Source: a virus (lineage: Duplodnaviria > Heunggongvirae > Uroviricota > Caudoviricetes). Taken from it: 41,599 nt of DNA. Positions 4,567 through 40,597 of this stretch are shown piece after piece. Position 1 is the first letter of the stretch. The number at the start of each line of letters is the position of its first letter. Position numbers and translations under genes: made by a program. The notes under the pieces are model-generated. The model saw only the letters and a program-made list of their open reading frames with translations. It had not been told where the DNA came from and searched no databases. The DNA lies in the IMG/VR virus record IMGVR_UViG_2740892231_000012. One strand, given 5' to 3'.

Positions 4567-4860
4567 AATAATCAGCCTGTTCCTGAATAAACTGAATTAT
4601 CATATCCACAGACCGATAAACGCCATTTTGCGTTAATTCAGTAAAGGCCCAACAAAGGGAGCGTCTTATTTTTCCGAAACGCTCGCAGGATAATAACGAT
4701 AAAGGGTTGAAAGGCCGATATCAAAAATAAGTGCCACCTGTCTTCGACTGACACCCCCGGCCAGTAAACGCCCAACCTGCTCGTATTGTTCCTGCGTGAG
4801 ACGGCGGGGTCTGCCGCCGGTTCGTCCCCTTTCACGGGCAGCNNNNNNNNNNAGAGCGTC

Positions 4861-5603
4861 TTATTTTTCCGAAACGCTCGCAGGATAATAACGATAAAGG
4901 GTTGAAAGACCGATATCAAAAATAAGTGCCACCTGTCTTCGACTGACACCCCCGGCCAGTAAACGCCCGACCTGCTCGTATTGTTCCTGCGTGAGACGGC
5001 GGGGTCTGCCGCCGGTTCGTCCCCTTTCACGGGCAGCTGCAAGACCAGCCCGTGTCCGTTCGACAATTAATTCACGCTCCATTTCTGCCAGCGCACCCAT
5101 TATGTGAAAAAAGAAGCGCCCCATGGGGGTTGACGTATCAATGTTGTCAGTAAGACTACGAAAATTTATCCCCTGTTGCTGTAATTCATCTGTCAGCGCA
5201 ACAAGGTGGCGCATACTGCGCCCCAGCCTGTCCAGTTTCCAGACCATCAGCGTGTCACCGGGTTTTAGTTTCTTCAGTGCCCGCTTCAGTCCCGGCCGCT
5301 GTGTCGTTTTACCACTCATTTTGTCTTCAAAAATCTGCTCACATCCTGCACATTCCAGCGCATTTCTTTGTAAACCGGTGTTNNNNNNNNNNACATACTG
5401 CGCCCCAGCCTGTCCAGTTTCCAGACCATCAGTGTGTCACCGGGTTTTAGTTTCTTCAGTGCCCGCTTCAGTCCCGGCCGCTGCGTTGTTTTTCCGCTCA
5501 TTTTGTCTTCAAAAATCTGCTCACATCCTGCACATTCCAGCGCATTTCTTTGTAAACCGGTGTTCTGGTCATTTGTTGATACGCGTATATAGCCAATCAG
5601 CAT
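4861..5603 (-). CDS. gin: Gin DNA invertase (serine recombinase); coordinates include an N10 gap at 5383-5392 and its duplicated flank
   Basis: MLIGYIRVSTNDQNT...GDTLMVWKLDRLGRSM...INFRSLTD...GRFFFHIMGALAEMERE is closely similar to Mu Gin / Hin-family invertases. A second copy of the gin 3' end at 4666-4842 is a gap-flank duplicate. Confidence 0.9.
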
Positions 5604-5665
5604 GTATTTACCTTCCTTAAAAAGAGGTGGAAAAGCCTTTTAAAGCAGATATACGGCATCCCTGA

Positions 5666-5692
5666 AACCTCGGTTTACGGGATACGGTAAAC
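5666..5692. promoter_or_regulatory. gix-like recombination site, right boundary of the invertible segment
   Basis: AACCTCGGTTTACGGGATACGGTAAAC resembles the Mu gix core and is an inverted copy of the site at 7206-7232. Lies directly upstream of gin. Confidence 0.6.
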
Positions 5693-6037
5693 AGGGCCGC
5701 GAATGCCCTGCCATCAAACGGTACGGCTGTTGCAGCAAGCAGGCTGGCAAATGCCCGCAGAATCAATGGTGTCGCCTTTGACGGCACGCAGGATATAAAC
5801 ATTACGTCAGGAATGCCGGAATCAACGGCCAATCAGCGTTATGTTACAGGGGTAAGACTGGGAGCGCAGGCATTAAGCGGCGGACTGGAATATAATTACT
5901 CCCTGTCATCAGGAAATGTGATTACCGGTTTTAAGACTGACGGAGACTGGGAAATGCGTGGTGGTGATGACCGTGTTTATTACAGACAGATACAATATTG
6001 TATTAATGGGCATTGGGTATCCGCTGCAAGTATTTAA
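5681..6037 (+). CDS. Silent alternative tail-fibre C-terminal cassette (S'v-like), promoterless in this orientation
   Basis: Translation DTVNRAANALPSNGTAVAASRLANARRINGVAFDGTQDINITSGM... parallels the S segment ...TVNKAADALPSGGTAVAANRLATPRNINGVPFDGTLDINITSGM. C-terminal YYRQIQYCINGHW parallels YYRPVQIYINNAW in S. Confidence 0.6.
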   Translation, partial: DTVNRAANALPSNGTAVAASRLANARRINGVAFDGTQDINITSGMPESTANQRYVTGVRLGAQALSGGLEYNYSLSSGNVITGFKTDGDWEMRGGDDRVYYRQIQYCINGHWVSAASI

Positions 6038-6158
6038 TTAACGGGGGCATAGCACACAGCAGCCAGCATCTGAAATATGCGTTATTTCAGACAAGCATTG
6101 CCTGTATATGGCGATAGTATTATTCCTGTTTTTATCATTGATTTACATGGTGATGTTT

Positions 6159-6810
6159 ATGCAACTGATTAATGTCAAACGATATTACCCGAAAGACAAA
6201 CCCTATGGTGAGGATGTTCAGTATTTCCAGAGTGAGGACGGAAGGGATTTTTATGAATCTATCCCGCTTTTTACAAAGAAATACAAACTCTGTATTTCGC
6301 CTGTAACGGGTATTATCTGCTCTGTTGCTGAAGATGTCTCTGCTTTATATCCGGCAGGTTTTACTGTTGTTGAAGTGGACGAACTGCCGGAAGGTGTGAA
6401 TATTGACGGTAACTGGCAGTTTTCTGATGGCCTGATATCAAAGGTGCCGGTAAACTGGAAGACGGTTGCTGAAAAGCGCCGCTCATCGCTGCTCCAGGAA
6501 GCCAACGAAACTGTGGATGACTGGAAAACGGAATTAAAACTGGACATGATTAGCGATGAAAATAAATTACAGCTGACGCGCTGGATGGCGTATATCCGNN
6601 NNNNNNNNTCGCTCATCGCTGCTCCAGGAAGCCAACGAAACCGTGGATGACTGGAAAACAGAATTAAAACTGGACATGATTAGCGATGAAAATAAATTAC
6701 AGCTGACGCGCTGGATGGCGTATATCCGACAGCTTAAAGAAATGCACCTTAATGATATTGCCAGTGAGGGGCATTACCAGGCGATTCCCTGGCCGGAAAA
6801 ACCGGAATAA
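6159..6810 (+). CDS. Tail-fibre assembly protein (U/Tfa family); includes N10 gap at 6599-6608 and duplicated flank
   Basis: Similar to Mu U: ...GIICSVAEDVSA..., ...FTVVEVDELPEG..., and C-terminal ...MISDENKLQLTRWMAYIRQLKEM...IPWPEKPE. Confidence 0.75.
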
Positions 6811-6844
6811 TTCAGAGGGTGCATTCAGCACCCTTTTCTGTGGT

Positions 6845-7756
6845 TTACACTGAACTTACCGTTCTCCAGGCATTATTAATATAAATCTGAACCGGGCGAT
6901 AATAGACCCCACCGATATTGTCCGCAGACCGGGAGCCGGTTTCCTGCACGTTAATACCGGAAAGCATACAACCGGAAGGTGCGCTGTAATTCCATGACAT
7001 TTCATTGCCTCCGGGTGAATGATAGCTCTGTGCTCCAAGCTGAACATTCTGTACATACCGGCCATCTGCGGTTGACTGCGTCATTCCTGACGTGATGTTG
7101 ATATCCAGCGTTCCGTCAAAAGGAACACCATTAATATTTCTTGGGGTGGCGAGTCTGTTTGCTGCCACGGCGGTTCCACCCGATGGCAGGGCATCAGCAG
7201 CCTTATTTACCGTTTCCCGTAAACCGACGTTATCGATAAAAGCGCCTTTATCCGGAATGTCTGCGCCGTTCTGCTCCCTGCGCAGGTAACGGTTATCACC
7301 TTCGCTTTTGCTGTAAACATCCAGATTATTACGGGCGGTTCCCGCATTCTCCAGGTCGGCAAGGTTCTGATCCTTCGCCAGAGCATTAACGTCACCGGGA
7401 CCAAGACTGTTTTTTGTGGCAAGCGCCCCAAGACCAAGATAACCACGGGCAAGACGCTGGGCTTCCGCACCGGCATCAGCAATTTCTTTCAGGTTGTTTT
7501 TCCGGGAAAAGGCATTCGCAGCGATAATGGCTTTAATGGACAGCGTAAGCTGGTTTAACTGCGCCTTATCCGGCTGAATACTGGCTTCAGCCAGAATATT
7601 CAGCAGTTCGGCCTGGAGAATATTCAGCCAGTCCTGACCAATCCAGCTGATACCTTTTTGTCCGTCACCTTCGGTAAACCAGGTGGTGGTATTACTCTGC
7701 GCCGGAGCCAGTTCAGGCATATTCGCCACGCCGGAATTATTATCAACATGGAACAT
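6845..7756 (-). CDS. Tail fibre protein S (constant part plus currently expressed variable C-terminus)
   Basis: Start MFHVDNNSGV uses an ATG overlapping the stop of the upstream baseplate gene (TAATG), preceded by GAGGAG. Contains the gix-like site at the constant/variable junction. Confidence 0.75.
   Translation of the reverse strand: MFHVDNNSGVANMPELAPAQSNTTTWFTEGDGQKGISWIGQDWLNILQAELLNILAEASIQPDKAQLNQLTLSIKAIIAANAFSRKNNLKEIADAGAEAQRLARGYLGLGALATKNSLGPGDVNALAKDQNLADLENAGTARNNLDVYSKSEGDNRYLRREQNGADIPDKGAFIDNVGLRETVNKAADALPSGGTAVAANRLATPRNINGVPFDGTLDINITSGMTQSTADGRYVQNVQLGAQSYHSPGGNEMSWNYSAPSGCMLSGINVQETGSRSADNIGGVYYRPVQIYINNAWRTVSSV
7206..7232. promoter_or_regulatory. gix-like recombination site inside the S coding sequence, left boundary of the invertible segment
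   Basis: TTACCGTTTCCCGTAAACCGACGTT is the inverted counterpart of the 5666-5692 site. Confidence 0.6.
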
Positions 7757-8316
7757 TAAATATTCTCCTCTTCGTGACTGTTTGCATATACGTAAATAAA
7801 CGTCTGCCATGCAGGCTTATAACGGTTCAGAATACATTCCAGCGCACCACCCTCATAAATACGCAGCGGGGTGAGAATATCATCCAGCACATTCATATTC
7901 CGGTAGCCGGTTTCACTGTTTATCGTGACAATACTGACCCACTGTGAATCCGGTGATGGCTGAATATCTATTTCATAACCAAACTCTGCCGCAAACCGGA
8001 TATAAAATTCACGGTTCAGCGAAGGCTTCATCCGGTATTTATTCCCGGCATAACGCTGTCGTTCTGTGATGGTGGCTCCGGCCATATCACACTCGGGAAG
8101 GCCGAGATAACGCTCCCAGTCTTCCAGAAGCAGACGGGAACTGTCAGGGAAACGTTCTGCCAGCAGTTGTTTTCCCGTCCATGCAACACGTTCGGTGGAA
8201 TGGCTGAGGCCAAGGCATAACGCAGCCAGTACGGATGACGGCCGCTTGTCCCAGGCCAGTCCGTCAGGCAGCAACTGCAACAGGGCGCGCTGATGCGGAG
8301 TGAGGGTTACAGCCAT
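7756..8316 (-). CDS. Baseplate protein (Mu gp48-like)
   Basis: 186-aa ORF placed between the baseplate J-like gene and the tail fibre gene, as in Mu; translationally coupled to both. Confidence 0.6.
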   Translation of the reverse strand: MAVTLTPHQRALLQLLPDGLAWDKRPSSVLAALCLGLSHSTERVAWTGKQLLAERFPDSSRLLLEDWERYLGLPECDMAGATITERQRYAGNKYRMKPSLNREFYIRFAAEFGYEIDIQPSPDSQWVSIVTINSETGYRNMNVLDDILTPLRIYEGGALECILNRYKPAWQTFIYVYANSHEEENI

Positions 8317-9392
8317 GTGATTTCCCCCACTGTCAGCAGCTCACTGTCCCCCGCCTGAACCGACGTCAGCGGGCTGCGCACTTCAAAATCCTCCAGATTT
8401 TTCACCCCCGCCACGGCACGCCAGAAAGACGACGCCAGAACCAGACCGCCGGGCCGGGATTCGTTGTATAACAGGTCAGTCAGTGCCTGTTTTACGGCCG
8501 CCTGATTCTCCGGTGTTTTCGGGATGATCCTGATACTGAAGGGCACTGGCTTATTGGTCAGTTTAAACACGGTCACCGTCGGCCCCAGCGGCTGACCGAC
8601 AGGCTGACCGGTCGCCGGATCATCATGACTGCGGATATAATCCGCCACACGTTTCACATCACCTTCACCGGGAAAAATGTCCGGGTTGTTGTCCTGAACG
8701 AACGTCACCCCCACGCTGCCCGCCTGCGGCCATTCCGGGCGGCACCATGCCCGCGTCACCCCCGGCACTTCACGCGCCCAGCGTTCAAAATCGTACTGCG
8801 TGCCGCCGGACGGCGGATTCTGCACCCGGAAAACCAGGCGGGAAAGCAGCTCCGGCACTGTTTCCACATCCGCACCACCGGTGATCCCTGTTCCGGTCAC
8901 CGTGGCCGTCTGGTTGATCCCCGCCTGCGGAGTGACAAACGTCAGTTTCGTCCCTGCCGGGGCATTTCCCGCACGACCGGCACTTTCGGCCTCCACACTG
9001 ACATTCAGCGTACCGGCTTTACCGGTCAGTGAGGAGGTGATGCGGTAAACCACGCCGTCACTGCGCTGGAGAAGCACACCTTCCGTGATCCCCGCATCCG
9101 TGGTCAGCATCAGCTGAACCGGCCCGTCACCCCGTGAGGCGGGTTTACGCATGACACCCCAGAAAGCGCAGTGCTTCAGCAACTCGGCTTCATCGGCTTC
9201 TGTCGGGATGATCTGACGTGCAATCCAGGCCAGATGTTCATGCTCCTGTGCAGACAATCCTGCCTGAGCATACGCAATGGCATTCAGGGTGGTTTCATTC
9301 ACGCCCGGCTGCGAACCGGGAAGACGCTGGCTGATATCCTGCTGTGTCTGCGTGATTAATTGTGCCAGCGGTAAAGGCTGATAAGGCATCAC
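8307..9392 (-). CDS. Baseplate J-like wedge protein (Mu gp47-like)
   Basis: 361 aa, at the baseplate J position between the gp46-like and gp48-like genes. Confidence 0.7.
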   Translation of the reverse strand: MMPYQPLPLAQLITQTQQDISQRLPGSQPGVNETTLNAIAYAQAGLSAQEHEHLAWIARQIIPTEADEAELLKHCAFWGVMRKPASRGDGPVQLMLTTDAGITEGVLLQRSDGVVYRITSSLTGKAGTLNVSVEAESAGRAGNAPAGTKLTFVTPQAGINQTATVTGTGITGGADVETVPELLSRLVFRVQNPPSGGTQYDFERWAREVPGVTRAWCRPEWPQAGSVGVTFVQDNNPDIFPGEGDVKRVADYIRSHDDPATGQPVGQPLGPTVTVFKLTNKPVPFSIRIIPKTPENQAAVKQALTDLLYNESRPGGLVLASSFWRAVAGVKNLEDFEVRSPLTSVQAGDSELLTVGEITWL

Positions 9393-9826
9393 TCCCCCTT
9401 AAGATCAGCATAAAAAATCATGGGTCTTACCGAACCATCAGGCAGGGTTATGCGCACCGAAAGCGCCAGCCGCGCGTGTCCCACACGTTCTGCATGACAG
9501 ACCACGGATGACGCCACGCCATCCTGACTGAGCCAGCCCAGCGCCTCATCCGCGTAGGCACGGGCACGGCTTATCACGGAGACCAGCGTTTTTTCCCGGC
9601 TGAGAAGCCACAGACGGGAGCCAATGGGGCGCGGGCGAAAACTGTCTCCCCACCATCCCCGGCGGTCACGTGTGCCATCAGGGATTTCATCCGATGCCAG
9701 TGCCCGGCGGTCAGTAAACAGTGAAATCAGAACCGCTGTCAGCAGGCTGTCATCTGTCAGCAGGTCTGCACCGTTCAGTTGCAGCGAACCGCATCCCTGA
9801 TCCCACACAATTGCAATATCAGCCAT
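9389..9826 (-). CDS. Baseplate protein (Mu gp46 / gpW-like)
   Basis: Probable start MADIAIVWDQG...; the ORF track extends further 5' into the upstream gene. Position between the spike and J-like genes. Confidence 0.6.
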   Translation of the reverse strand: MADIAIVWDQGCGSLQLNGADLLTDDSLLTAVLISLFTDRRALASDEIPDGTRDRRGWWGDSFRPRPIGSRLWLLSREKTLVSVISRARAYADEALGWLSQDGVASSVVCHAERVGHARLALSVRITLPDGSVRPMIFYADLKGE

Positions 9827-10433
9827 TCTCCGGCGCTCCTGTCTTACTGCCTTCACCGTTATCATGATGTACATGGCCGGAATAGGTGATTCCCGCAATA
9901 ACAGCCTCGGACATCGTGAACGTACCCTGTGATTTTCCTGTGCCGTCAATGGTCAGATTACCTTTGATATGCAGGTTTTTATCCACCGTGACATTGCCCG
10001 TAAAGGTGGCTTCCGGTGTATCCACCTGAACACCTTCATCGGCGTAAATTTCCAGCGTCTTACAGGTCACAATGATCCGACCGTTCTTTGTCAGACGTAT
10101 ACGGTGCCCCTCATGGTGATACACGCCGGTATCTCCGGCAGTGAGTCCGGTCGGGCGACTGCGGCGGTCTTCCACCACAAGCACCACGGTCTGATCACGC
10201 TGCCCGCCCAGACAGGCAAAAAAGGTTTCCGCACCCGGCAGGGGAACACTGATCTGCCCGTACTGCTGGGGACGCTCCACATCATCAAAGGTTTCGCCGT
10301 CCATGCCGGTGAGCTGCACATTCTGCATTTTCAGTTCGTCATGTGTGCCGGTCAGAACGCCCCGGCCAAACAGCAGGCGAATGCCGCGCGTTACCGGGGC
10401 AATCAGGCGGCTGAACACTTCATCATTCATCAA
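9819..10433 (-). CDS. Baseplate assembly protein V / central spike (Mu gp45-like)
   Basis: 204 aa with Gly-rich C-terminal spike-like region (...NLTIDGTGKSQG...GHVHHDNGEG); syntenic position. Confidence 0.7.
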   Translation of the reverse strand: MMNDEVFSRLIAPVTRGIRLLFGRGVLTGTHDELKMQNVQLTGMDGETFDDVERPQQYGQISVPLPGAETFFACLGGQRDQTVVLVVEDRRSRPTGLTAGDTGVYHHEGHRIRLTKNGRIIVTCKTLEIYADEGVQVDTPEATFTGNVTVDKNLHIKGNLTIDGTGKSQGTFTMSEAVIAGITYSGHVHHDNGEGSKTGAPENG

Positions 10434-11547
10434 AGCTAATCCCCTGTTTTTTCATCTGCTGGCGAATAAAGGCATCAACATCATCACCGGAACCACCACG
10501 GCCCTTACTGTCCGGCTCTGCCGGAACGATAAAGCCGTCACGCGGTGCCAGTACCAGCCGGGTGACTTCCCCGTTCTGCTCATCCAGTAAAAACTCCACC
10601 TGGCAGACCAGCAGTTCAGTCTGTTCGATACCGAAACGCAGGGCTGAAACACCGGTCAGCAGATTGACATCCCATAACCGGCCATCATCCCGGAACCAGC
10701 CACGCACGGTGGCGGAAAACCGTTCTGAACGGGCAACCGCACGGCGCATCTCCCGCAGGGCGCGCTGCCGTGCACCGGTGGTGTCTGTCTGCTGATCGGC
10801 GAGGATGATTTTCGGCCGGTAGCGACCGATCTGCTCATCACTGATGATGCCCACTGGGGCCGCCAGCCGGGCGGCAGATTCGCTGTCTCCCCGTTTGCCA
10901 CCACCGCGTCCATGCCCCCGGACACGGTATTCGCTGTATCGTCCTCGCCAGTCCGTGTTGTAATCGGCATCAAGCAGGTTTTCCCCCAGCACCAGTCTGT
11001 CCGTCTGCTGATTTCCTGCCTGGGTGAACACCAGATCACCGTCAGCATTACTGGTCACCAGCACCCCACGATGCCGGGCCGCACGGGTCAGCGCATCCGC
11101 CACGGTTTCTGAGTTTTCCAGGGTAAAAGAGCTGAAGGGGCGTGCAGCCGTGTCGTCGTTAACCTGCCAGCGCACGGCTATTCCGAAGGGCGCACATAAA
11201 TCTGCGGCAATCTGTGCCAGCGTCCGGTTTCGCCACTGGCTGCCGGGATGGATGGCGGCACAGTCCACCAGGTCGCCGGTTTTATCCCGACCGTTAATGC
11301 TGATCTGATGACGGGTTGCACTGATCCGCTGACTGACCTGATCCAGCCAGCCACTGATGACAGTCTGCCCGTTAATTCTGAGCGTCAGGGACTGACCGGT
11401 CCGCAGGGCTGAGGGGATGCGCTCACCGGGCAGCATCAGCCCCAGTTCAAACGACCCGGCCAGATGCTCCAGAGAACGACGGACGCTTACCGTCAGCCAG
11501 CCGGAAAAAATACTGCCGCCAATATACAGCTCAATCCTGCTGCTCAC
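10423..11547 (-). CDS. Baseplate hub / late-control gpD-like protein (Mu gp44-like)
   Basis: 374 aa, immediately downstream of the DNA circulation protein, as in Mu. Confidence 0.7.
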   Translation of the reverse strand: MSSRIELYIGGSIFSGWLTVSVRRSLEHLAGSFELGLMLPGERIPSALRTGQSLTLRINGQTVISGWLDQVSQRISATRHQISINGRDKTGDLVDCAAIHPGSQWRNRTLAQIAADLCAPFGIAVRWQVNDDTAARPFSSFTLENSETVADALTRAARHRGVLVTSNADGDLVFTQAGNQQTDRLVLGENLLDADYNTDWRGRYSEYRVRGHGRGGGKRGDSESAARLAAPVGIISDEQIGRYRPKIILADQQTDTTGARQRALREMRRAVARSERFSATVRGWFRDDGRLWDVNLLTGVSALRFGIEQTELLVCQVEFLLDEQNGEVTRLVLAPRDGFIVPAEPDSKGRGGSGDDVDAFIRQQMKKQGISFDE

Positions 11548-12889
11548 TAATCACCTCCACACTGCGACCACCAGGAACAAAAACCGGATCAGGGATGTTG
11601 TTCCTGCGGACAAAATACTGCCAGCGACGGCTGTTGCCGGTGGCACGGTACAGCGTGACCAGTGCCGGTTCGGTGGTTCTCACCATGACCAGAGAAGCAC
11701 CGGGAAGATGCACGCTACGCGTTGTTAAATCCTCTGTCAGCGCAAGCCTGGCATCACGTAATGCAAGGGCGGTTCCGGTATGGCCCTGTGCGGACAAATC
11801 CAGCACCTGTTGTTCCAGGGCATCACTCAAATCCCGGTTGATCCGCTGCACATCGGCAGAACTTTCCAGCCAGGCCAGTCCGCCCTCCCGGTCTGTATCC
11901 TGAACGTGCGTCGCACTCTGCCGGACGACCTGATCCAGCAGTTTTCCTACCGTCTGCGCCTGTGACACCAGGGTTGCGCTCTGCATGACTGTCCGCAGCA
12001 GACGGATATTTTTCTGTGCCGCAGGCGTCAGACCAATCAGGATCTGCGGATCATCCTGCCCGCTGAGGGTATAACGCAGGGAAGAAAGTGTGCGGTACAG
12101 TTGCGGCATTGCCTGCTCTGTCATGCTGTCACGATTTGTGGTCAGGCTGCCGGACGGCGTTGCGGCCTTCCCGGTCAGTGACAGGGAAGGATCGCCGGGC
12201 AGTCCCGTCAGCACCGCAAACATTCCGGCCAGAGATTCAGCCATGCGACGGGGCGAATTAATCAGGGCGGCAGCATTCCCTTTCAGGGCAGTGAAACTGG
12301 CCGTAAAGGCACTGATATCCTGCACAATCCCCATTCCCGAAACGGCATTCTCCAGCGCATCAATTTTATCGCTGATGGTGTCGGTCATGGCCTGCACATC
12401 ATGCAGGCCGTCTGAAATCACTGTCCAGCTGTCTGAAAGCGTGTTAAACAACTGATTCATTGCTGAACCGCTTTTCTGCTCCAGAACGGCAGCCGTGTCT
12501 TCAGCCACCGCCGGTGCGGTATCGTCACTGGCGGGGATCGCGTTGATCGTGAACTCAACCGTTCCCTGTTCGCTGGCGTTATAACGGCTTTCAAAGCTGT
12601 TTATCAGCACATTTAAGGTGCCGTAATCCGGGTGCATCAGTTCACCGGCACCGGGTGCCCGCAGCGCATCCCGCAGGCGGCTTCGCTGCGTCTGAAGATC
12701 ATCGCCGATCACAAGAGCCGTGAATGTAAACTCCGGGAGTTTTGGCCCTAAATCATCCGCGCCGCCGCTTTCCCGCAGAGGATATTCACGGCGTACAATG
12801 TTACGTCCGCCCCGTTCCCGTTGTTCCTGATAAACCAGAAACGGTACACCACGAAAGGAGCCACGCCCCGGCGTGTCAGTAGAGGCCAT
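11531..12889 (-). CDS. DNA circulation protein (Mu gp43-like)
   Basis: 452 aa, directly downstream of the tape measure gene, as in Mu. Confidence 0.7.
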   Translation of the reverse strand: MASTDTPGRGSFRGVPFLVYQEQRERGGRNIVRREYPLRESGGADDLGPKLPEFTFTALVIGDDLQTQRSRLRDALRAPGAGELMHPDYGTLNVLINSFESRYNASEQGTVEFTINAIPASDDTAPAVAEDTAAVLEQKSGSAMNQLFNTLSDSWTVISDGLHDVQAMTDTISDKIDALENAVSGMGIVQDISAFTASFTALKGNAAALINSPRRMAESLAGMFAVLTGLPGDPSLSLTGKAATPSGSLTTNRDSMTEQAMPQLYRTLSSLRYTLSGQDDPQILIGLTPAAQKNIRLLRTVMQSATLVSQAQTVGKLLDQVVRQSATHVQDTDREGGLAWLESSADVQRINRDLSDALEQQVLDLSAQGHTGTALALRDARLALTEDLTTRSVHLPGASLVMVRTTEPALVTLYRATGNSRRWQYFVRRNNIPDPVFVPGGRSVEVISEQQD

Positions 12890-15701: not shown

Positions 15702-15715
15702 TGCATTTTTCCTGA

Positions 15716-32573: not shown

Positions 32574-32585
32574 TCACCTGCCTGT

Positions 32586-33262: not shown

Positions 33263-33810
33263 GGCATTAACTCCCGTAATACAACATCTTCGGCAGTCCG
33301 GCGATGGTGATAAATAAAATTCACCGTACTCTCGGATAATTCAAATTTCTCGCCTATTTCCCGGAAGGTAAGACGTCGTGGTGATTCAGCATCCCGTAAT
33401 TCACGAATAAGATGAACATCATCATCAGGTATACGGGTGAAGGGCAGCAACTCTCCGTATTTTTTCATGCTTACGCCAATATATCGCGCCCGTTTGTGGA
33501 CAGAATCCCGGTCTCGCCCCAGATATTCTCCTATTTGCTTACCGGTCATCGTTCTGGCATTTTTTCGGATAAATTTATCTTCATCATGTTTAAATCTTGG
33601 ACGTTTGCATTTGAGCAACTCCGGGTAAGTACCGCGTAATAAAACAATCCGGTTATGTACACCCCAGAAACTTCTTTTTACCCTGACAGCAATATCCTTA
33701 ACCGGGGTGGATGGATAAAGCGCAATCAGCAGTGCATCTTCTTCAGGTGTCCACGCACGGACATGAGCGGGTGCACGGCCTTTTCGCCCCATGGGTTGTA
33801 AAATCATCAT
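33259..33810 (-). CDS. Putative DNA-binding protein with repeated helix-turn-helix-like segments
   Basis: Three similar segments: WTPEEDALLIALY...IAVRV, MTGKQIGEYLGRDRDSVHKRARYIGV, LTFREIGEKFELSESTVNFI. Confidence 0.4.
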   Translation of the reverse strand: MMILQPMGRKGRAPAHVRAWTPEEDALLIALYPSTPVKDIAVRVKRSFWGVHNRIVLLRGTYPELLKCKRPRFKHDEDKFIRKNARTMTGKQIGEYLGRDRDSVHKRARYIGVSMKKYGELLPFTRIPDDDVHLIRELRDAESPRRLTFREIGEKFELSESTVNFIYHHRRTAEDVVLRELMP

Positions 33811-33813
33811 ACA

Positions 33814-34329
33814 TCACCCCCTGACTCGCTTTTCAGCAGCATAAAACTCATCAGACAGAATTTCGGTCATTTTCCGTTTTGCGGAATCATCTTCGCACTG
33901 AAGGTAAATAACATCGTCAACGCAGAACCACTTCACGGGACCATGCAATATTGCTGAAAAGTCAATGCCCAGCCAGAACAACAGGGCATCGGTTCTGGCA
34001 TACGTGACGGGCGAATATTCACGCCACAGACTGTTAAGTTCGTCAGAGGCAACGCGCAGGGCTTTGGGAATACGTGATGTGCGCGGTGTGCAGCTCCAGC
34101 CATTCGACGCAGTCGGTTTTCGCCATAAGTCGCGATGAAAAGGATATTTGTCATCCATAAAGCGCAGCCCTTTAAAACAAAAGCCACTGATACCGGATAC
34201 AAATACCGACCGGCACGCAACATTCAGCACGGCCTCAAGGCGTTTTGCCTCATCCTTAACTTTCTGGCAGTCCTGCTGATATTTTTGCCACGCGGCCAGC
34301 GCGGAAGGGTTTGATGTTTTAAAGAACAT
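33814..34329 (-). CDS. Hypothetical early protein
   Basis: 171-aa ORF translationally coupled to the upstream gene (shared base at 34329). Confidence 0.4.
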   Translation of the reverse strand: MFFKTSNPSALAAWQKYQQDCQKVKDEAKRLEAVLNVACRSVFVSGISGFCFKGLRFMDDKYPFHRDLWRKPTASNGWSCTPRTSRIPKALRVASDELNSLWREYSPVTYARTDALLFWLGIDFSAILHGPVKWFCVDDVIYLQCEDDSAKRKMTEILSDEFYAAEKRVRG

Positions 34330-34862
34330 TACGCCACCTCCGCAGATATCCCGGCAGGCGCGGCCGTCCGGTCAACAATCAGGTAACGCAGAACACGCGC
34401 GGTGATATTCCAGCCGCTTAAACCGCAGATGATGACACCCAGGCGTATGTCGATATACGCCATCACAAACTGGGGCACGCCTTCTTTCATGGCCTGCTCA
34501 TCAACTTCAGCCACCACATAAACGGTTTCGCAGGTCAGTACGCCCTGAGCAAATTCCCACGCCATCGACGGAATATCATGCCCCTCAATCCACGGCAGGG
34601 ACTTTCTGAAGCTGCACCACTGAACATCATCAGCCGCACATTCCTGGCTGCATTTGCGACGAACCGGCTGCACCGGGCGGGGACGCGGAATATCATAAAA
34701 ACCGTTACATTCCGTCAGCACCCCGGCATCAACCGCATCACGCAGAAAATAAACCATCGAGGATGGCGGCATATTCATTTTTTCAGCCAGAACACCGCAG
34801 GTCAGACGTCCGTAAATACGCAGCCAGTTTTTAACCCCTTCAAGCACTTTTGCATCAATCAT
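34329..34862 (-). CDS. Hypothetical early protein
   Basis: 177-aa ORF in the same coupled array. Confidence 0.4.
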   Translation of the reverse strand: MIDAKVLEGVKNWLRIYGRLTCGVLAEKMNMPPSSMVYFLRDAVDAGVLTECNGFYDIPRPRPVQPVRRKCSQECAADDVQWCSFRKSLPWIEGHDIPSMAWEFAQGVLTCETVYVVAEVDEQAMKEGVPQFVMAYIDIRLGVIICGLSGWNITARVLRYLIVDRTAAPAGISAEVA

Positions 34863-34865
34863 GAA

Positions 34866-35408
34866 TTATTCCTCCGTCAGCGCCACATATTCAGAATGTT
34901 TAATTTCCTGGCATTCTTCAGGAATACACCCTATTATTTCCCTGCCATAAGCGCCTACTTTAAACACCACGCACAGGGCATCACGGGAGAGCGACGGGGT
35001 CCACCAGGAGTCCGTGTTAAACATGGAGGGGATTCTCATTACCCCCAGCTTTTCACAGAGCCAGACAAGGAAATCAGGACGCTTTCTTAACTCACGTTCA
35101 GCGGTTTCAATCATTGCGGCAATCGCCGGACCTTCAGGGCATGACTCATCAGGTCTGGCAATAAAGCACGGTCCGTCCCCGATAAAAGCCACATCATCGC
35201 GCTTACGCCAGCCCGCAGGCAGAGCACCAGAAAAATAAAACTCACTGATTACGTCCATGGCAAACGGCTTTAAGCGCAATCCGGCAGCGCCTGTATTTTT
35301 CAGTAATGCCCGAAGAATACTGTTGCGTAGCGGTAAAACAGTCTGTTGATATTTGGTGAAATATTTATTTGTCTGCACACGGTCTAATTTGAAATAAAAA
35401 TATGCCAT
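34866..35408 (-). CDS. Hypothetical early protein
   Basis: 180-aa ORF in the same array. Confidence 0.4.
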   Translation of the reverse strand: MAYFYFKLDRVQTNKYFTKYQQTVLPLRNSILRALLKNTGAAGLRLKPFAMDVISEFYFSGALPAGWRKRDDVAFIGDGPCFIARPDESCPEGPAIAAMIETAERELRKRPDFLVWLCEKLGVMRIPSMFNTDSWWTPSLSRDALCVVFKVGAYGREIIGCIPEECQEIKHSEYVALTEE

Positions 35409-35505
35409 ATATCCTGTTCCTTATTTTCAGTTTACAGGCGCAGGCAGTCCCCTGACGCGAGCGCCATAATTAAAACGAAGTGATATTTAATTGATTAATG
35501 CGGTG

Positions 35506-36036
35506 TTATTTATTCAGTCCGGCGTCCTGTTCAAAAGGCTCGACATAAAAACTTTCAGCGCCTTTATTCACCTTAATACCGGCAATCCCTTTCACCGCAT
35601 CCGGCTCCGCCAGGACCGCTTCCTTGTTCACTTCCTCTTTCGTGCGGATAAAACGCTCAAGGCCCATACGGCGCAGCATTTCAATCACACCTTCCACATC
35701 ACGACTGACGCTGCATGATGGATTCCCCAGTCGCCATGACACCGTTCCGGTGGTCAGATTGGCAGTTTTGGTTTTGCCGCCGTTCGTCAGCTCATCACGG
35801 TTGGTTTTGCACCAGTCCTGAATCCCCTTAAAAAGCACTTTGATTTCTTTTTTAAGGTTTTCAATCTGCGGCGTATAACGGGCGGTGATTTCTGCCACTT
35901 CATCATTCATCGCTGTTTCCAGGCGCAGCGCCTCTCGCTGAATATCGCCCAGGGTGCGGATATCGCGGCTGACCTCTTCACGGGTCTGCGGTGCCGCCTC
36001 TGCTGCGGCCTTTAATTTTGTAACGCGTTTTGCCAT
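35506..36036 (-). CDS. gam: Gam host-nuclease inhibitor (Ku-like DNA end-binding protein)
   Basis: Close similarity to Mu Gam: ...LGDIQREALRLETAMNDEVAEIT..., ...WCKTNRDELTNGGKTKTANLTTGTVSWR..., ...LERFIRTKEEVNKEAVL.... Confidence 0.9.
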   Translation of the reverse strand: MAKRVTKLKAAAEAAPQTREEVSRDIRTLGDIQREALRLETAMNDEVAEITARYTPQIENLKKEIKVLFKGIQDWCKTNRDELTNGGKTKTANLTTGTVSWRLGNPSCSVSRDVEGVIEMLRRMGLERFIRTKEEVNKEAVLAEPDAVKGIAGIKVNKGAESFYVEPFEQDAGLNK

Positions 36037-36047
36037 TTTGTTTTTCC

Positions 36048-36341
36048 TTATTGCACTGTGCCTGATGCTTTATGCACGCGGTGGCGTTTAATGATGGCAT
36101 CCGCCCCAAAAGCCTGTACAGATGCCTGAAATTCCGCTGAGAGAAACTGAATAATTTCAGGGCTGTGATACTGGAGAATACTTGCATAAACGTCACAGAG
36201 TGACGTCGGCCTGTTATTCGTATCACGTTCTGTTTTTACATCCACACCAATCTTTTCATGCACTTCAACACAGTCATTGCCTGCCGGTTTTTCGTCATGC
36301 GAAACATGCTTAAATTCAAAAATAACGCGTACTTTGCTCAT
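36048..36341 (-). CDS. Small hypothetical early protein, tandem paralog A
   Basis: Starts MSKVRVIFEFKHVSHDEK; the adjacent gene starts MSKVVRIIFEYKEHVIHK. Confidence 0.45.
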   Translation of the reverse strand: MSKVRVIFEFKHVSHDEKPAGNDCVEVHEKIGVDVKTERDTNNRPTSLCDVYASILQYHSPEIIQFLSAEFQASVQAFGADAIIKRHRVHKASGTVQ

Positions 36342-36345
36342 GGAA

Positions 36346-36618
36346 TTACCCCTGCTGATTAAATTCATTACCTTTAATAACCCCGGAACGCATGCTCATA
36401 TCTTTCATGAGCGCACTGGCTTTCATTGCCACAAGTTCAGCAAAGTCTCTGCTTTCCGCGAGCATAACCACCCCAAAAATCATGGCGGGTCCATCACCTT
36501 TCTGCTTTATCCCGGTTGAACGTATGTCCAGACTTACCCCCATGCGCACTGTTCCATCAGCGTTTTTATGGATAACGTGCTCCTTGTATTCGAAAATAAT
36601 GCGTACGACTTTACTCAT
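36346..36618 (-). CDS. Small hypothetical early protein, tandem paralog B
   Basis: 90 aa; N-terminus paralogous to the gene at 36048-36341. Confidence 0.45.
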   Translation of the reverse strand: MSKVVRIIFEYKEHVIHKNADGTVRMGVSLDIRSTGIKQKGDGPAMIFGVVMLAESRDFAELVAMKASALMKDMSMRSGVIKGNEFNQQG

Positions 36619-36896
36619 CCTCTGGTCCTCGTTCTGTTTGGATAACTGACCCGGCGTCTGACCTCACGGCAGAACCGAATCATGGCATTAAAGGCTTCTT
36701 CCTCCGTCACCGCTTCCGGTATCCCCGGAACCAGTAACTGCTCCTGTTCATCACGTCCATGACGCGCCATAACCTCAATCACATGCCGTACCGTGGCAGG
36801 CTTTCCGGCAACTATCGGCAATGCACCTTCCGGCAGGACGTAACCAAACTCAATAAGACCACTCGACCACGCCCATGCAATGAGATTTTTTTTCAC
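36615..36896 (-). CDS. Hypothetical early protein
   Basis: 93-aa ORF coupled to neighbours. Confidence 0.4.
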   Translation of the reverse strand: MKKNLIAWAWSSGLIEFGYVLPEGALPIVAGKPATVRHVIEVMARHGRDEQEQLLVPGIPEAVTEEEAFNAMIRFCREVRRRVSYPNRTRTRG

Positions 36897-36897
36897 C

Positions 36898-37164
36898 TCA
36901 CACCTCCCAGTAAACCGTGCAGCCGCTGATGCGGGTGGCCTTCACACGGCGGCGCAGGCCGTTGGTCTGTATGGTGATTTCAATTTCACCGGTTCCCTGC
37001 ACGTTGCCTACCGGCGGCGTGGTTTTCAGTGCAAAACGTTGTGGGTAGCGCTTACTGCGTTCCAGTACCGCACCGGCAAGTTCGGTCAGACGGCGCGCGC
37101 TGTTCAGGGAGTCGAATAAATTCATTTTGTTACCGCAGGATTGCATATTCATATAACACCTCAT
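36898..37164 (-). CDS. Hypothetical early protein (candidate kil-region gene by position only)
   Basis: 88-aa ORF downstream of B in the early operon. Confidence 0.35.
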   Translation of the reverse strand: MRCYMNMQSCGNKMNLFDSLNSARRLTELAGAVLERSKRYPQRFALKTTPPVGNVQGTGEIEITIQTNGLRRRVKATRISGCTVYWEV

Positions 37165-37392
37165 TTAGCTGACTTGTTTCGCACCAACAGAACGGCATAT
37201 TCCGCTGTAAACTTCTGTCGCACCTTCGCGATCAAGTCCGGCAGATATCACCATTCGTGTGCGGTCATTAAATTCAAAAAGTAAATCGCCACATTCTTTA
37301 TTTTCGGCCAGTGAAATCACCTTCACGTTATCGAAATTAACCAGGTAAAAGCGTCCGTAAATATCAGGAATATAAAATACCGCCATAATCAC
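37165..37392 (-). CDS. Hypothetical early protein
   Basis: 75-aa ORF immediately downstream of B with ATGA overlap. Confidence 0.35.
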   Translation of the reverse strand: MIMAVFYIPDIYGRFYLVNFDNVKVISLAENKECGDLLFEFNDRTRMVISAGLDREGATEVYSGICRSVGAKQVS

Positions 37393-38321
37393 ACCTGTGA
37401 GAGTAATTCAGGGTTGGTATAAACCTCTTTAAAGGCCGCATTAATATGTTTTTCTGTCAGCGCCGCACCTTCACCGCTGGCGGTGAGCCACGCCTGGTTA
37501 AGCGTATGTGTCAGAACGCGTAACGCTCCCGGCTTTTCAGCGATAGCCTGCATGACGGCCAGCTCGGCCTCACCACTGATACCCCATGCCCTGGCAATGG
37601 CCAGCACATCCGCCTTTTTGGCCTTGCGAAGTTGTTTTGTACGGGCAAGACGGCTGAACAGGCGCGATAAATCATCAACGGCGCGGCGTCCACCTTTAAA
37701 CAATCCGCGCGGGTTACCAATAAGCACCATCCCGATCCCCGTGGCGTCCTGAATTGCCCGGAGTTGCTCCAGACCGTCAATACCAAGATGATCCGCCTCA
37801 TCCACAATCACCAGTCCACGCGTTCCCATCAGGCGACGGCGGATGGCGCGGGATAATGCCCCTTTGTTCGCGCGGGTGTAATCAATCCCCAGCGCATCGG
37901 CCAGCTCCAGCAGACACTCCGTGACGCTGGAGTGCGCGGGTGACAGGGTGATCATCCAGGTGTTTGGTTGCTCCTGGCAGTAATTACGGGCGGTGGCCGT
38001 TTTACCTACCCCCGGCACGCCCACAATGACGTTAATACAGCCCATCAGGCGAACCGCCTGAAACAGTGCGCGCAGCTCCTGAACTGTCTGCGTTTCCACA
38101 AACTGCGGCGGTTCCGGCAGTGCGCTTTGTTTATTCCAGTTCTCATACCAGGAACGCAGGGAAGCAGCCACAGCGGCGTTATCGCCTTTATATTTCCCCT
38201 TGCGGAAAGCCGATAATGTGCCGTCGGAAATTCCCGCCTCTCTGGCGATGGCATACTGCGTCAGTACGCCGCCATCAATAAGTTCATCAATGGTCTTGAT
38301 TACATCGTTAATATCAGTCAT
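37389..38321 (-). CDS. B: Transposition target-DNA activator B (AAA+ ATPase, MuB-like)
   Basis: 310 aa with N-terminal HTH region, Walker A GVPGVGKT and Walker B LVIVDEADHL; immediately downstream of the transposase. Confidence 0.9.
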   Translation of the reverse strand: MTDINDVIKTIDELIDGGVLTQYAIAREAGISDGTLSAFRKGKYKGDNAAVAASLRSWYENWNKQSALPEPPQFVETQTVQELRALFQAVRLMGCINVIVGVPGVGKTATARNYCQEQPNTWMITLSPAHSSVTECLLELADALGIDYTRANKGALSRAIRRRLMGTRGLVIVDEADHLGIDGLEQLRAIQDATGIGMVLIGNPRGLFKGGRRAVDDLSRLFSRLARTKQLRKAKKADVLAIARAWGISGEAELAVMQAIAEKPGALRVLTHTLNQAWLTASGEGAALTEKHINAAFKEVYTNPELLSQV

Positions 38322-38391
38322 ATTATTAACCTCTCATTTGATACCTTGTTTAATCAAATAACCTGAGTCGCCGCTCGGGTTATTTTTTATT

Positions 38392-40597
38392 TCAGGCCAG
38401 CGGGTCATTTTCTTTTAATTTCGCTTCGAGCAACTGCAATCCCCGCTGGAAATTGCGCTCGTATTCTTCATCAGGCTCATCATCAACGGCAGGTTGCTGA
38501 ACGGCCACCGTATTACCTACCGGGCGATAGATGTTTTCCAGCCAGGGCTCCTGCGGCTTGTGCTCCAGCACGTTGACAACCTCATCCTCGGCATCACGGA
38601 TTTTTTCCTCTGCGCGTTTACGCATGCCTTTAAGGCGTTGCTGCTGTTTGTAGTATTCCGCGCTAACCGGGAAGGCTTCGCGTTTATTACCGTCCCATAC
38701 CGCCTCGCAAATCACGCTGCCATCCAGGCGACGTACGGTAATTCGTTCGGCATCATGAATGTCATAGCTGATAAGCACCTTGCGGCCATGCTCATCACGC
38801 AGCTCGGGCGCGTAGTAAATATTATTCAGCCAGCGTATTTCACAGCGTCTTACAGGGCGTTCCACCATCGGCCGGAACATGTCCCGCAATTCCACATCGG
38901 ACAGCCATTCAATTTCCGTGTCCTCTTCCGCCAGGCGTTTTTTTCTGAACTCCGCCGGGCTGTAATGCTTGCCGTTCGGCTTCACCGGTAATTCATCGTG
39001 CGGCCGGTTGTTGTACCACTCAACACCATCACGAATGGCATCAATCAGTTCAGACCAGGACGGTAAATCACGCATCGCTGACTGCTGCCGGGCGTTCAGC
39101 CGTTTGCCCTGTTGCAGGGCAGTAAATGCCGAGCGTAAATCGCGGTTGGTTTTGCGTAACGTCTCGCGATCTGCACCTTTCCCGAAATAGGTGCGGTATT
39201 TACGGGCTATGCGCATCGGTAATGTGCGGTTAAGCCGTTCGATAATGCCTCGTCCCTGCGGATTACCGGCAATCCCGGTCGGGTGATTAATCCCCAGTCG
39301 CGGCAGTATCCCCACAACCTCCTTATCCAGGATGTCGGCGGTTTCCCCGGAGCCGTTATCCGAGTAATACAGAAACGGTTTGCCGTGATGGCGAATGCCG
39401 TGCTGTATGGCACCGGCTACGGCGAAAACATTTTCAGCCAGGTCAAGGCTCCAGCCCACCACAAAGCGCGTGCCACCGTCGATAACAAAGGTCACTTCCG
39501 GTGCAAATGGCCGACCGTGAACCGGGTGTGCGCATTTCAGCTTCATGCCGTGACCGTCACCAATCCAGACATAATTCACCGGCATTTTTGACCAGTCGCG
39601 GCGCGTGAATCCCTCAAGCTGGCGGTATTCACTGCCGGTCACCCGGCCTTTTTGTTTCACCACTTCCGGCAGTTTCTTCATTGCGCGGCGAATGGTGTCA
39701 TAAGACGGCATGATATCGAGCATATAAGGCTCATCAGCGTGCCGGTGCTGCCATTCAGCGACAAAATCCTCGTAAGCCTCGGTCATTGGTCGGCCGTTTG
39801 ACTGGCGATACTGCGCCAGAAATTCGGGCAGCCAGTTAATATCTTCGGCTTTTATTTCCTGGCGCTTACCCGGTGCCAGTAAAAGCAGGCGTTCAGCGGC
39901 GTTCTGCGCCTTGTTAAAGGCCGCAATCCAGCGTTTCAGCGTGATTTCACTTAACGCGCGGCTGTTTCCCTTTTTGGCGTTCGCCGTCTCAACCATTGCC
40001 ACAATGCGCTCGTCCAGCTGCGAACGNNNNNNNNNNTGCAATCCAGCGTTTCAGCGTGATTTCACTCAACGCACGGCTGTTTCCCTTTTTGGCGTTCGCC
40101 GTCTCAACCATTGCCACAATGCGCTCGTCCAGCTGCGAACGTGCCAGGTTGTCAACGATAAACCGGATAGCCTTCGCACAGCTGAAACCAGGTTGTTGCG
40201 CGACTTTCAGAACTTCGCTGACGATCGCGATTCGTGCATCAGCCACCTGGCGCTGGTTTTCAGTCAGGGCATTAAGGCGTTCGAGCATCAGTTGTGGTGA
40301 TCCGCGATATGCCTCCACCGCATCAACCACGGCAGGCGAGCGTCTGGCCTTTGTCACCACCGGAGCTGGTGATTCATCGGCTTTTTGCGTCATCAGTTGC
40401 AGGGCGTAGCGTTCACGTAATGCCTGCTGCGTCACTTCAGGTAAACAGTCGATGCTGTATTCAGTTGCTTTAGAGCCTGAGCGACGACGGGAACAACAGC
40501 TTTTCCCTTGTACGTAACGTTGTAATGCCTGGCGAATACCTTTTGTTGTAGCAGGCATTCCGGGCGCGCCAATCAGTTCTTTTGCAATGACATACAT
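38392..40597 (-). CDS. A: DDE transposase A (MuA-like); includes N10 gap at 40027-40036 and a duplicated flank of about 100 bp
   Basis: Long ORF downstream of ner, with MuA-like N-terminal DNA-binding region and catalytic core. The track shows ...ARSQLDERIVAMVETANAKKGNSRALSEITLKRWIA on both sides of the gap. Confidence 0.9.

What the first reader, a model, noticed from the sequence alone, without database searches (positions are those of the whole stretch)
4843..40036. Fifteen N10 gaps, each flanked by near-identical direct repeats with scattered SNPs
Every gap (4843, 5383, 6599, 13958, 18920, 25832, 26751, 27319, 29093, 29530, 30842, 31520, 32015, 32357, 40027) has roughly 80-180 bp repeated on both sides with a few mismatches. 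This is the signature of overlapping contig ends joined without merging, possibly from strain heterogeneity. It inflates gene lengths and creates apparent frameshifts in gin, the assembly gene, tape measure, terminase, endolysin, gemA and A.
Basis: seen in the sequence. Interest (0 to 1): 0.45.

Follow-up and report, generated by a model that had tools for sequence, protein, structure and literature searches.

The report
Assembly artefact from two collapsed prophages
The N-gaps with duplicated flanks are not biology: a short-read assembler (word size 69) merged two nearly identical Mu-like prophages of one E. coli genome into one scaffold and, wherever they differ, wrote both versions one after the other with ten Ns between.

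Summary

In those 13 gaps, a block of n bases left of the gap (n = 96-485) aligns without indels to the n bases right of it. The first base always differs, the last 68 are always identical, and no two differences are 69 or more apart. A one-parameter model rebuilds the 41,599-base window exactly at k = 69 and at no other k from 55 to 83. The model treats the blocks as the two arms of de Bruijn-graph bubbles, written in series with N10.

Gap 18920 is a variable (GGCTTC)n repeat and also fits k = 69. Gap 32015 is a real 90-bp hole.

The source is scaffold CCPU01000114.1 of GCA_000752815.1. All 15 gaps lie inside the prophage, and about 18 kb of host flank has none. One prophage end sits in phnM and the other in bdm, loci 2.76 Mb apart in K-12. 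I therefore infer that the two sequence versions are two prophage copies in one genome, not two strains.

Both arms match natural alleles. Collapsing either arm restores nine broken genes. This is an artefact of low interest.

The parts
1..280 (+). Host DNA: the 5' part of phnM, cut by the prophage insertion. The 94-aa fragment ends at a stop codon just inside the prophage end.
   Evidence: It aligns to K-12 phnM down to position 4,316,939.
281..41599 (-). Mu-like transposable prophage, with most genes on the minus strand, running from the mom/com end to the repressor gene. The true end lies about 272 bp beyond the window. As written here it is a composite of two copies.
   Evidence: The collapsed length is about 39.2 kb, against 38,962-39,310 bp in three closed relatives.
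4658..5037 (.). Bubble 1: left arm 4658-4842, N10 4843-4852, right arm 4853-5037 (n=185, 3 differences). It lies in the 3' part of the Gin-like recombinase gene.
5211..5564 (.). Bubble 2: left arm 5211-5382, N10 5383-5392, right arm 5393-5564 (n=172, 6 differences). It lies in the 5' part of the Gin-like recombinase gene.
   Evidence: The left arm is identical to CV261.
6479..6728 (.). Bubble 3: left arm 6479-6598, N10 6599-6608, right arm 6609-6728 (n=120, 3 differences). It lies in the tail-fibre assembly gene of the invertible segment.
   Evidence: The left arm is identical to L002 and the right arm to CV261.
13801..14124 (.). Bubble 4: left arm 13801-13957, N10 13958-13967, right arm 13968-14124 (n=157, 4 differences). 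It lies in the tape measure gene.
18862..18929 (-). A (GGCTTC)n array followed by N10 (18920-18929). The array encodes (Glu-Ala)n in the HI1506-related protein. This gap has no duplication. At least the 9 nt AAATCTGTA is missing.
   Evidence: The period-6 run of 59 nt plus the 9 missing nt equals 68, which is k-1.
25687..25986 (.). Bubble 5: left arm 25687-25831, N10 25832-25841, right arm 25842-25986 (n=145, 3 differences). It lies in the protein at the terminase large subunit position.
26623..26890. Bubble 6: left arm 26623-26751, N10 26752-26761, right arm 26762-26890 (n=129, 3 differences). It lies in the same terminase-position gene.
   Evidence: The left arm is identical to L001.
27223..27424 (.). 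Bubble 7: left arm 27223-27318, N10 27319-27328, right arm 27329-27424 (n=96, 4 differences). It lies in the Gp27-family gene.
28955..29240 (.). Bubble 8: left arm 28955-29092, N10 29093-29102, right arm 29103-29240 (n=138, 16 differences). It lies at the 5' end of the Rz-like endopeptidase gene.
   Evidence: The left arm is 100% identical to closed genome CV261. The right arm has 1 mismatch to L002.
29417..29654 (.). Bubble 9: left arm 29417-29530, N10 29531-29540, right arm 29541-29654 (n=114, 2 differences). It lies in the lysozyme gene.
   Evidence: The left arm is identical to CV261 and the right arm to L001 and L002.
30668..31025 (.). Bubble 10: left arm 30668-30841, N10 30842-30851, right arm 30852-31025 (n=174, 5 differences). 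It lies in the GemA (gp16) gene.
   Evidence: The left arm is identical to L013 and the right arm to L009.
31035..32014 (.). Bubble 11: left arm 31035-31519, N10 31520-31529, right arm 31530-32014 (n=485, 124 differences, 74% identity, no indels). These are two alleles of the GemA 5' end plus a 98-aa gene and part of a 65-aa gene.
   Evidence: The left arm is identical to CV261. The right arm is 99.8% identical to 97-3250 and at least 44 other closed genomes.
32015..32024 (.). N10 marking a true gap. The 90 bp found at this spot in 11 relatives is absent.
32156..32567 (.). Bubble 12: left arm 32156-32356, N10 32357-32366, right arm 32367-32567 (n=201, 8 differences). It lies in a 110-aa early gene.
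   Evidence: The left arm is identical to CV261 and the right arm to L001 and L004-L013.
39922..40141 (.). Bubble 13: left arm 39922-40026, N10 40027-40036, right arm 40037-40141 (n=105, 3 differences). It lies in the N-terminal part of the MuA transposase gene.
   Evidence: The left arm is identical to CV261 and the right arm to L004-L013.

Best explanation
The window is a stretch of a draft E. coli scaffold (GCA_000752815.1, CCPU01000114.1). A de Bruijn-graph assembler running at k = 69 merged two nearly identical Mu-like prophages into one path.

How the pattern arises:
- Each cluster of differences between the two copies forms a bubble with two single-coverage arms.
- The paired-read scaffolder sees both arms as neighbours at the same place but finds no graph path from one to the other. 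It therefore writes arm 1, a minimal buffer of 10 N, then arm 2, and continues through the shared sequence.
- A node is exported as the last base of each of its k-mers. So arm 2 begins exactly on the first differing base, and both arms end k-1 = 68 bases after the last differing base.

The result is 13 false tandem duplications (2,221 bp plus 130 N) that break nine genes. There is also one unresolved length difference in a (GGCTTC)n repeat and one 90-bp hole.

Shown directly: the k = 69 geometry, the natural origin of both arms, the restriction of gaps to the prophage, and the two unrelated host junctions.

Inferred: that the software was Velvet with its Pebble scaffolder, and that both copies sit in one genome rather than in two mixed cultures.
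For: Geometry of the duplicates:
- in 13 of 15 gaps the n bases left of the gap and the n bases right of it align without gaps. The first base differs in 13 of 13, the identical tail is exactly 68 in 13 of 13, and the largest spacing between differences is 60 (below 69).
- I took the two collapsed haplotypes, clustered differences closer than k, and wrote each arm from the first difference to the last difference + k-1, with N10 between arms. This regenerates the window exactly (41,599 nt) at k = 69. It fails at every other odd k from 55 to 83.
- at gap 18920 the 59-nt repeat run plus the 9 nt that relatives have before CCGGCC equals 68.
- there are no other repeats of 40 nt or more.

Both arms are real alleles:
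- arms match closed genomes exactly or nearly so.
- transitions to transversions are 33:11 in the 11 mild bubbles.
- CV261 equals the left arm at 5 of the 6 bubbles between 29 and 40 kb, so the left arms there look like one coherent haplotype.

The duplications are not in the real element:
- relatives have a single copy at every site.
- removing either arm (2,351 bp) restores nine genes to full-length single alignments.

Two copies at two loci:
- the source scaffold has no N run in 10.0 kb of left host flank or in the 8.4 kb recovered beyond the window's right end (about 8.2 kb of it host DNA), against 15 in the prophage.
- the left junction is in phnM and the right junction in bdm, 2.76 Mb apart in K-12. 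The flanking bases are CTGG and GGAT, whereas three single insertions in closed genomes have matching 4-bp repeats.
- several related copies per genome are common (up to 6 places per genome).

Software behaviour:
- (PMC2793427): Velvet's Pebble links single-coverage 'unique' nodes. [quoted passage not shown]
- (PMC5320598): a common Velvet pipeline scans k from 66% to 90% of read length, which includes 69 for 100-nt reads.
Against: - The reads, the coverage and the rest of the assembly were not available. Twofold depth over the prophage and the two complementary junction contigs are therefore predicted, not seen.
- The 10-N floor for short or negative distance estimates, and the last-base export of nodes, are my recollection of the Velvet manual and the 2008 paper. 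I could not find a citable text for either.
- Gap 32015 fits the model only if the last difference in the missing 90 bp lies at position 22. That cannot be checked.
- The smallest arm is 96 k-mers. I do not know the exact rule that made shorter bubbles disappear.
- No closed genome carries either junction, so the two copies could not be phased independently.
Confidence: 0.9

Rival explanations
1. Mixed culture or strain heterogeneity. Two closely related strains were sequenced together, each with one Mu-like prophage. One strain has it in phnM and the other in bdm. The assembler merged them in the same way.
For: The bubble geometry only requires two sequence versions in the read set, not that they share a cell. 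Both arms are natural alleles.
Against: There is no N10 site in about 18 kb of host flank, against one per 2.8 kb inside the prophage. The two strains would therefore have to be near-clonal apart from the prophage. Several related copies in one genome are common in closed E. coli genomes. This reading needs an extra assumption (contamination) that the data do not call for.
Confidence: 0.1
2. Overlapping ends of adjacent contigs from an overlap-type assembly or a reference-guided ordering were joined with N10 without merging. The mismatches are low-quality contig ends.
For: The left copy always abuts the gap and the right copy follows it, which is also what overlapping ends would look like.
Against: The identical tail is exactly 68 nt in 13 of 13 pairs and the first base after the gap is always a variant. 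Only k = 69 regenerates the window. The differences are internal, dominated by transitions, and match natural alleles. They are not end-of-contig errors. The 485-bp pair is only 74% identical.
Confidence: 0.03
3. The duplications are real tandem repeats in the phage genome, and the Ns are unrelated placeholders.
For: None beyond the raw appearance of the sequence.
Against: Every relative examined has a single copy at every site. The duplications would disrupt the transposase, terminase-position protein, tape measure, lysozyme and other genes. Eleven of the 13 insertions (n + 10) are not multiples of three. The fixed 68-nt tail has no biological rationale.
Confidence: 0.01
4. A variant of the best explanation. 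Two copies exist in one genome, but the phnM-prophage-bdm join is real. It would have been produced by homologous recombination between two inverted prophage copies, giving a large chromosomal inversion, rather than by mis-scaffolding.
For: The scaffold runs down the K-12 coordinates to phnM and then up from bdm. That is the topology an inversion between the two sites would give. Such an inversion would contain both the origin and the terminus (my knowledge of the K-12 map), so replichore balance would be kept.
Against: A scaffolder walking through a collapsed two-copy repeat gives the same join whatever the true arrangement. There is no independent evidence, and no closed genome has these junctions.
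Confidence: 0.1

Closest known systems
Unpopped de Bruijn-graph bubbles (heterozygous or two-copy variation) written out in series by a paired-read scaffolder, giving false 'haplotype duplications' in draft assemblies. Velvet's Pebble behaviour is described in PMC2793427.
   Same: There are two alternative arms with clustered SNPs and an exact k-1 identical tail. The arms are joined by a buffer of Ns because no graph path links two parallel arms. The window can be regenerated exactly from two haplotypes with k = 69.
   Different: The software is not recorded in anything I could read. The 10-N floor is from memory. The variation comes from two prophage copies in a haploid genome rather than from diploid heterozygosity.
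Collapsed multi-copy prophage repeats that cause chimeric scaffolds in short-read bacterial assemblies.
   Same: One scaffold enters the prophage from one host locus (phnM) and leaves it at another (bdm). Gaps occur only inside the repeat.
   Different: Here the collapse is nearly complete, because the copies are far more alike than any pair of relatives examined (which are 92-99% identical to the window). This is why only 13 clusters of differences show up.
E. coli Mu-like transposable prophages, such as the 'inserted Bacteriophage Mu-like phage' regions in Stx phage records LC727895 and LC727881 and the prophages of JNE141411, SCU-106 and CV261.
   Same: The gene order is the same, from mom/com through gin, tail, head and lysis genes to mor, gemA, gam, B, A, ner and the repressor. 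DNA identity is 92-99%. Insertion sites look random: csiR, dmsA, oppF, phnM and bdm.
   Different: It shares only a 66-nt match (about 88% identity) with phage Mu itself over the 24.4 kb tested. The flanking repeats in three closed genomes look like 4 bp rather than Mu's 5 bp.

Membership tests
De Bruijn-graph bubble artefact (both arms written in series) | Both copies end a fixed k-1 bases after the last difference, at every site. | tested here: met
   The identical tail is 68 nt in 13 of 13 pairs.
De Bruijn-graph bubble artefact (both arms written in series) | Differences within one arm are never k or more apart, and separate bubbles are more than k apart. | tested here: met
   The largest spacing within an arm is 60. 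Clustering at k = 69 gives exactly 13 clusters and regenerates the window.
De Bruijn-graph bubble artefact (both arms written in series) | A single k explains all sites. | tested here: met
   Only k = 69 of the odd values 55-83 gives a sequence identical to the window. Gap 18920 also fits, since 59 + 9 = 68.
De Bruijn-graph bubble artefact (both arms written in series) | The true sequence has one copy. Removing either arm gives a colinear, intact element. | tested here: met
   Relatives have a single copy at every site. Nine genes are restored by collapsing.
Velvet/Pebble as the specific software | Neighbouring unique nodes with no connecting path are joined by a run of N. | tested here: met
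   The behaviour is described in PMC2793427, and the window shows it at 13 sites.
Velvet/Pebble as the specific software | A minimum buffer of 10 N, and node sequence exported without its first k-1 bases. | not testable with these tools
   The sequence fits both points: every run is N10 and every right arm starts on the first variant base. The software rules themselves are from my memory of the manual and the 2008 paper.
Two prophage copies in one genome (as opposed to mixed strains) | Variation is confined to the prophage. | tested here: met
   There are 15 gaps in the prophage and none in the 10.0 kb and roughly 8.2 kb host flanks. The rest of the 517-kb scaffold was not visible.
Two prophage copies in one genome (as opposed to mixed strains) | Two distinct insertion sites. 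| tested here: met
   The sites are phnM and bdm, 2.76 Mb apart in K-12, with no common target repeat.
Two prophage copies in one genome (as opposed to mixed strains) | Twofold read depth, 50:50 alleles and no empty-site reads. | not testable with these tools
   No reads were available.
Mu-like transposable prophage | MuA-type DDE transposase plus MuB ATPase, with Mu-type early, lysis, head and tail gene order. | tested here: met
   The precomputed Pfam hits are Mu-transpos_C, Phage-MuB_C, Phage_Mu_Gam, Mor, GemA, Mom and Com. The window is colinear with annotated relatives.
Mu-like transposable prophage | Insertion at many unrelated host sites, with a short target duplication. | tested here: met
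   The sites seen are csiR, dmsA, oppF, phnM and bdm. Perfect 4-bp flanking repeats occur in 3 of 3 closed genomes, while a 5-bp repeat fits only 1 of 3.

The most novel reading that the evidence does not exclude
The strain is a double lysogen carrying two Mu-like prophages. They appear to share the same repressor region and are far more alike (long stretches with no visible difference, and differences confined to 13 patches plus a repeat-length change) than either is to any prophage in 5,426 closed E. coli genomes. That pattern would suggest either intragenomic transposition followed by patchy exchange with other prophages, or ongoing gene conversion between co-resident copies. It might also come with a real 2.76-Mb inversion between them.
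Probability: 0.25. Interest if true: 0.3.

Novelty: not a real feature. Interest (0 to 1): 0.1.

Why it matters
The value is practical, not biological.

Anyone annotating or mining this record would call false frameshifts, truncated or inflated genes, and a 41.6-kb 'phage' that is really about 39.2 kb. This includes provirus catalogues that cut it out by gene boundaries. The record as written is also a mosaic of two copies with unknown phase.

The scaffold probably joins two distant chromosomal regions as well.

The fixed-tail rule gives a simple, reference-free test to flag and repair this class of artefact in other draft genomes. The rule has three parts: the first base after the N-run is a variant, the last k-1 bases are identical, and no two variants are k or more apart.

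Tried and rejected
- I searched 5,426 closed E. coli genomes for either host-prophage junction, hoping to phase the two copies from a sibling strain. None carries them.
- I looked for a citable statement of Velvet's 10-N minimum and of its node-sequence definition. The searches gave nothing relevant and the 2008 Velvet paper is not held.
- I searched the literature for the accession prefix CCPU01 and found no paper.
- I considered G-segment inversion (gin) as the cause of the three gaps at 4.8-6.6 kb. I rejected it because those pairs are direct, SNP-type and obey the same 68-nt rule as the rest, and no inverted repeat of 40 nt or more exists.
- I considered sequencing error as the source of the mismatches. 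I rejected it because arms match natural alleles exactly and transitions dominate.
- I checked for tRNA genes and Rfam families and found none.


Full report
**1. Checking the observation**

The window holds 150 N in fifteen runs of exactly ten.

Local alignment of the 400 nt on each side of every gap gave scores of 86-179 at twelve gaps. The maximum was 14 at 155 random control positions. An independent repeat finder showed that every direct repeat of 40 nt or more in the window is one of these gap-flanking pairs, and that there is no long inverted repeat.

Three gaps looked different at first: 18920, 31520 and 32015.

**2. Anatomy of the duplicates**

An ungapped register test showed one rule at thirteen gaps. 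The n bases immediately left of the N-run align base for base with the n bases immediately right of it, where n = 185, 172, 120, 157, 145, 129, 96, 138, 114, 174, 485, 201 and 105. In all thirteen:
- the first base of the block differs between the copies;
- the last 68 bases are identical;
- no two neighbouring differences are more than 60 apart.

The 31520 case is a 485-nt pair that is only 74% identical. Its right copy is the whole segment between gaps 31520 and 32015.

A fixed tail of 68 and a start exactly on a variant base are what the two arms of a bubble in a de Bruijn graph with k = 69 look like, if each node is written as the last base of each of its k-mers.

I tested this as a generative model. 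I collapsed the window into two haplotypes and clustered their 184 differences with the rule 'closer than k'. Each arm was written from the first difference to the last difference + k-1, with the arms in series and N10 between them. At k = 69 the output is identical to the 41,599-base window. At every other odd k from 55 to 83 it is not.

**3. The two remaining gaps**

*Gap 18920.* The gap follows a 59-nt period-6 run, C(GGCTTC)9GGCT. The repeat encodes (Glu-Ala)n near the C-terminus of the HI1506-related protein. Its length varies among relatives, with about 1, 10 and 13 units. Relatives have AAATCTGTA (9 nt) between the array and the CCGGCC that restarts after the gap. The sum 59 + 9 = 68 is again k-1. 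This fits two copies that differ in array length, with the short arms dropped from the scaffold (inference).

*Gap 32015.* This is a true hole. Eleven relatives have exactly 90 bp there. A negative distance estimate after the spurious 485-nt insertion would explain why only ten Ns were written (inference).

**4. The differences are real alleles and the duplications are not real**

- Arms match independent genomes exactly. Examples are 30842 left = L013 and right = L009, 6599 left = L002, 26752 left = L001, and 32357 and 40027 right = L004-L013.
- The rare left arm at 29093 is 100% identical to closed genome CV261.
- The divergent right arm at 31520 is 99.8% identical to 97-3250, and at least 45 closed genomes match it at 99% or more.
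- Transitions outnumber transversions 33:11 in the eleven mild bubbles.
- CV261 equals the left arm at 5383, 29093, 29531, 31520, 32357 and 40027. The left arms therefore look like one coherent haplotype over the last 11 kb.
- Relatives have a single copy at every site.
- Deleting either arm removes 2,351 bp and gives 39,248 bp. It restores full-length single alignments for the Gin-like recombinase, tail-fibre assembly protein, tape measure, the protein at the terminase large subunit position, Gp27, lysozyme, GemA, a 110-aa protein and MuA.
- Only the genes at the two true gaps stay broken.

**5. Where the two versions come from**

The element is a Mu-like prophage that is widespread in E. coli, especially in STEC.

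The 94-aa host fragment at the window start is unique to one public scaffold: GCA_000752815.1, CCPU01000114.1, 517,583 bp. A transposase fragment cut at gap 40027 led to the same scaffold. The fetched flanks are identical to the window where they overlap. They contain no N run in 10.0 kb to the left, nor in the 8.4 kb recovered beyond the window's right end, of which about 8.2 kb is host DNA.

The left prophage end lies in phnM, at about K-12 position 4,316,939. The right end lies in bdm, at about K-12 position 1,556,126. These are 2.76 Mb apart.

Three closed relatives have perfect 4-bp repeats on both sides of the element (GTAA, TGCG and CATA). The source scaffold has CTGG and GGAT. The two ends therefore belong to two different insertions.

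Together with the restriction of all gaps to the prophage, this points to two near-identical copies in one genome that were collapsed into one scaffold. Several related copies per genome are common in closed genomes. A mixture of two near-clonal strains cannot be excluded without the reads.

**6. Mechanism in the software**

The Pebble paper (PMC2793427) states that Velvet links single-coverage 'unique' nodes. When read pairs say two nodes are neighbours but no path is found, it merges them with a buffer of Ns whose length equals the distance estimate.

In a two-copy repeat, the shared sequence has double coverage and the bubble arms are the unique nodes. Two parallel arms sit at the same estimated position and have no path between them. 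This predicts the observed order: arm, Ns, arm, shared sequence.

The 10-N floor and the last-base export of nodes are my recollection of the Velvet manual and the 2008 paper. I could not find a text for either.

The value k = 69 is not a common default. It does lie in the 66-90% of read length range scanned by a widely used VelvetOptimiser pipeline, for 100-nt reads (PMC5320598).

**7. Comparison with what is known, and verdict**

This is a known class of artefact: unmerged alternative haplotype arms and a collapsed multi-copy prophage in a short-read draft. It is not a biological feature.

The details differ in three ways. The blocks are bubble arms, not overlapping contig ends. The versions are probably two prophage copies, not two strains. 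Only 13 of the 15 gaps are of this kind.

Interest is low. The main value is a warning about this record and a simple rule for detecting the artefact elsewhere.

Noticed in passing
window 1-280 and about 272 bp beyond window end (L014 near 8156; source scaffold CCPU01000114.1): The scaffold enters the prophage from phnM and leaves it into bdm/osmC, loci 2.76 Mb apart in K-12. So the 517-kb scaffold is probably chimeric, or else it records a real inversion between two prophage copies.
   Followed up: partly
L001 6349/45479, L002 6727/45688, L015 2469/41778: In three closed genomes the element TATAGCG...GGTTACA is flanked by perfect 4-bp direct repeats (GTAA, TGCG, CATA). A 5-bp target duplication as in phage Mu fits only one of the three.
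   Followed up: partly
window 18862-18919 (minus strand): A (GGCTTC)n array encodes a (Glu-Ala)n tract near the C-terminus of the HI1506-related head-region protein. The unit number varies among relatives (about 1, 10 and 13), so it is a coding VNTR.
   Followed up: partly
window 31035-32014: Two alleles of the same 485 bp (GemA 5' end plus small early genes) are 74% identical with no indel. Both are common in closed E. coli genomes. This looks like a sharply bounded replacement cassette in the early region, with identical flanks.
   Followed up: partly
window about 5600-7230: The tail-fibre and tail-fibre-assembly segment next to the Gin-like recombinase is in the same orientation as in SCU-106 (L002) and inverted relative to JNE141411 (L001). 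This is as expected for a G-segment-like invertible region.
   Followed up: no
L001 27227-27306, L002 27716-27796, L015 23552-23631 (window about 22.0 kb): RefSeq annotates a 'tRNA-OTHER' between the virion-morphogenesis and head-morphogenesis genes in all three relatives. ARAGORN finds no tRNA and Rfam finds no family anywhere in the window.
   Followed up: partly
window 2527-4566 (minus strand): The large SASA/DUF6645 protein between the DUF1378 gene and gin is only 59% identical to its counterpart in JNE141411, while its neighbours are 98-100% identical. It appears to be a variable accessory module.
   Followed up: no
whole window: The window begins at the ATG of the truncated phnM fragment and ends at the stop codon of the repressor gene. 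So it was cut out at gene boundaries and lacks the last roughly 272 bp of the prophage.
   Followed up: yes
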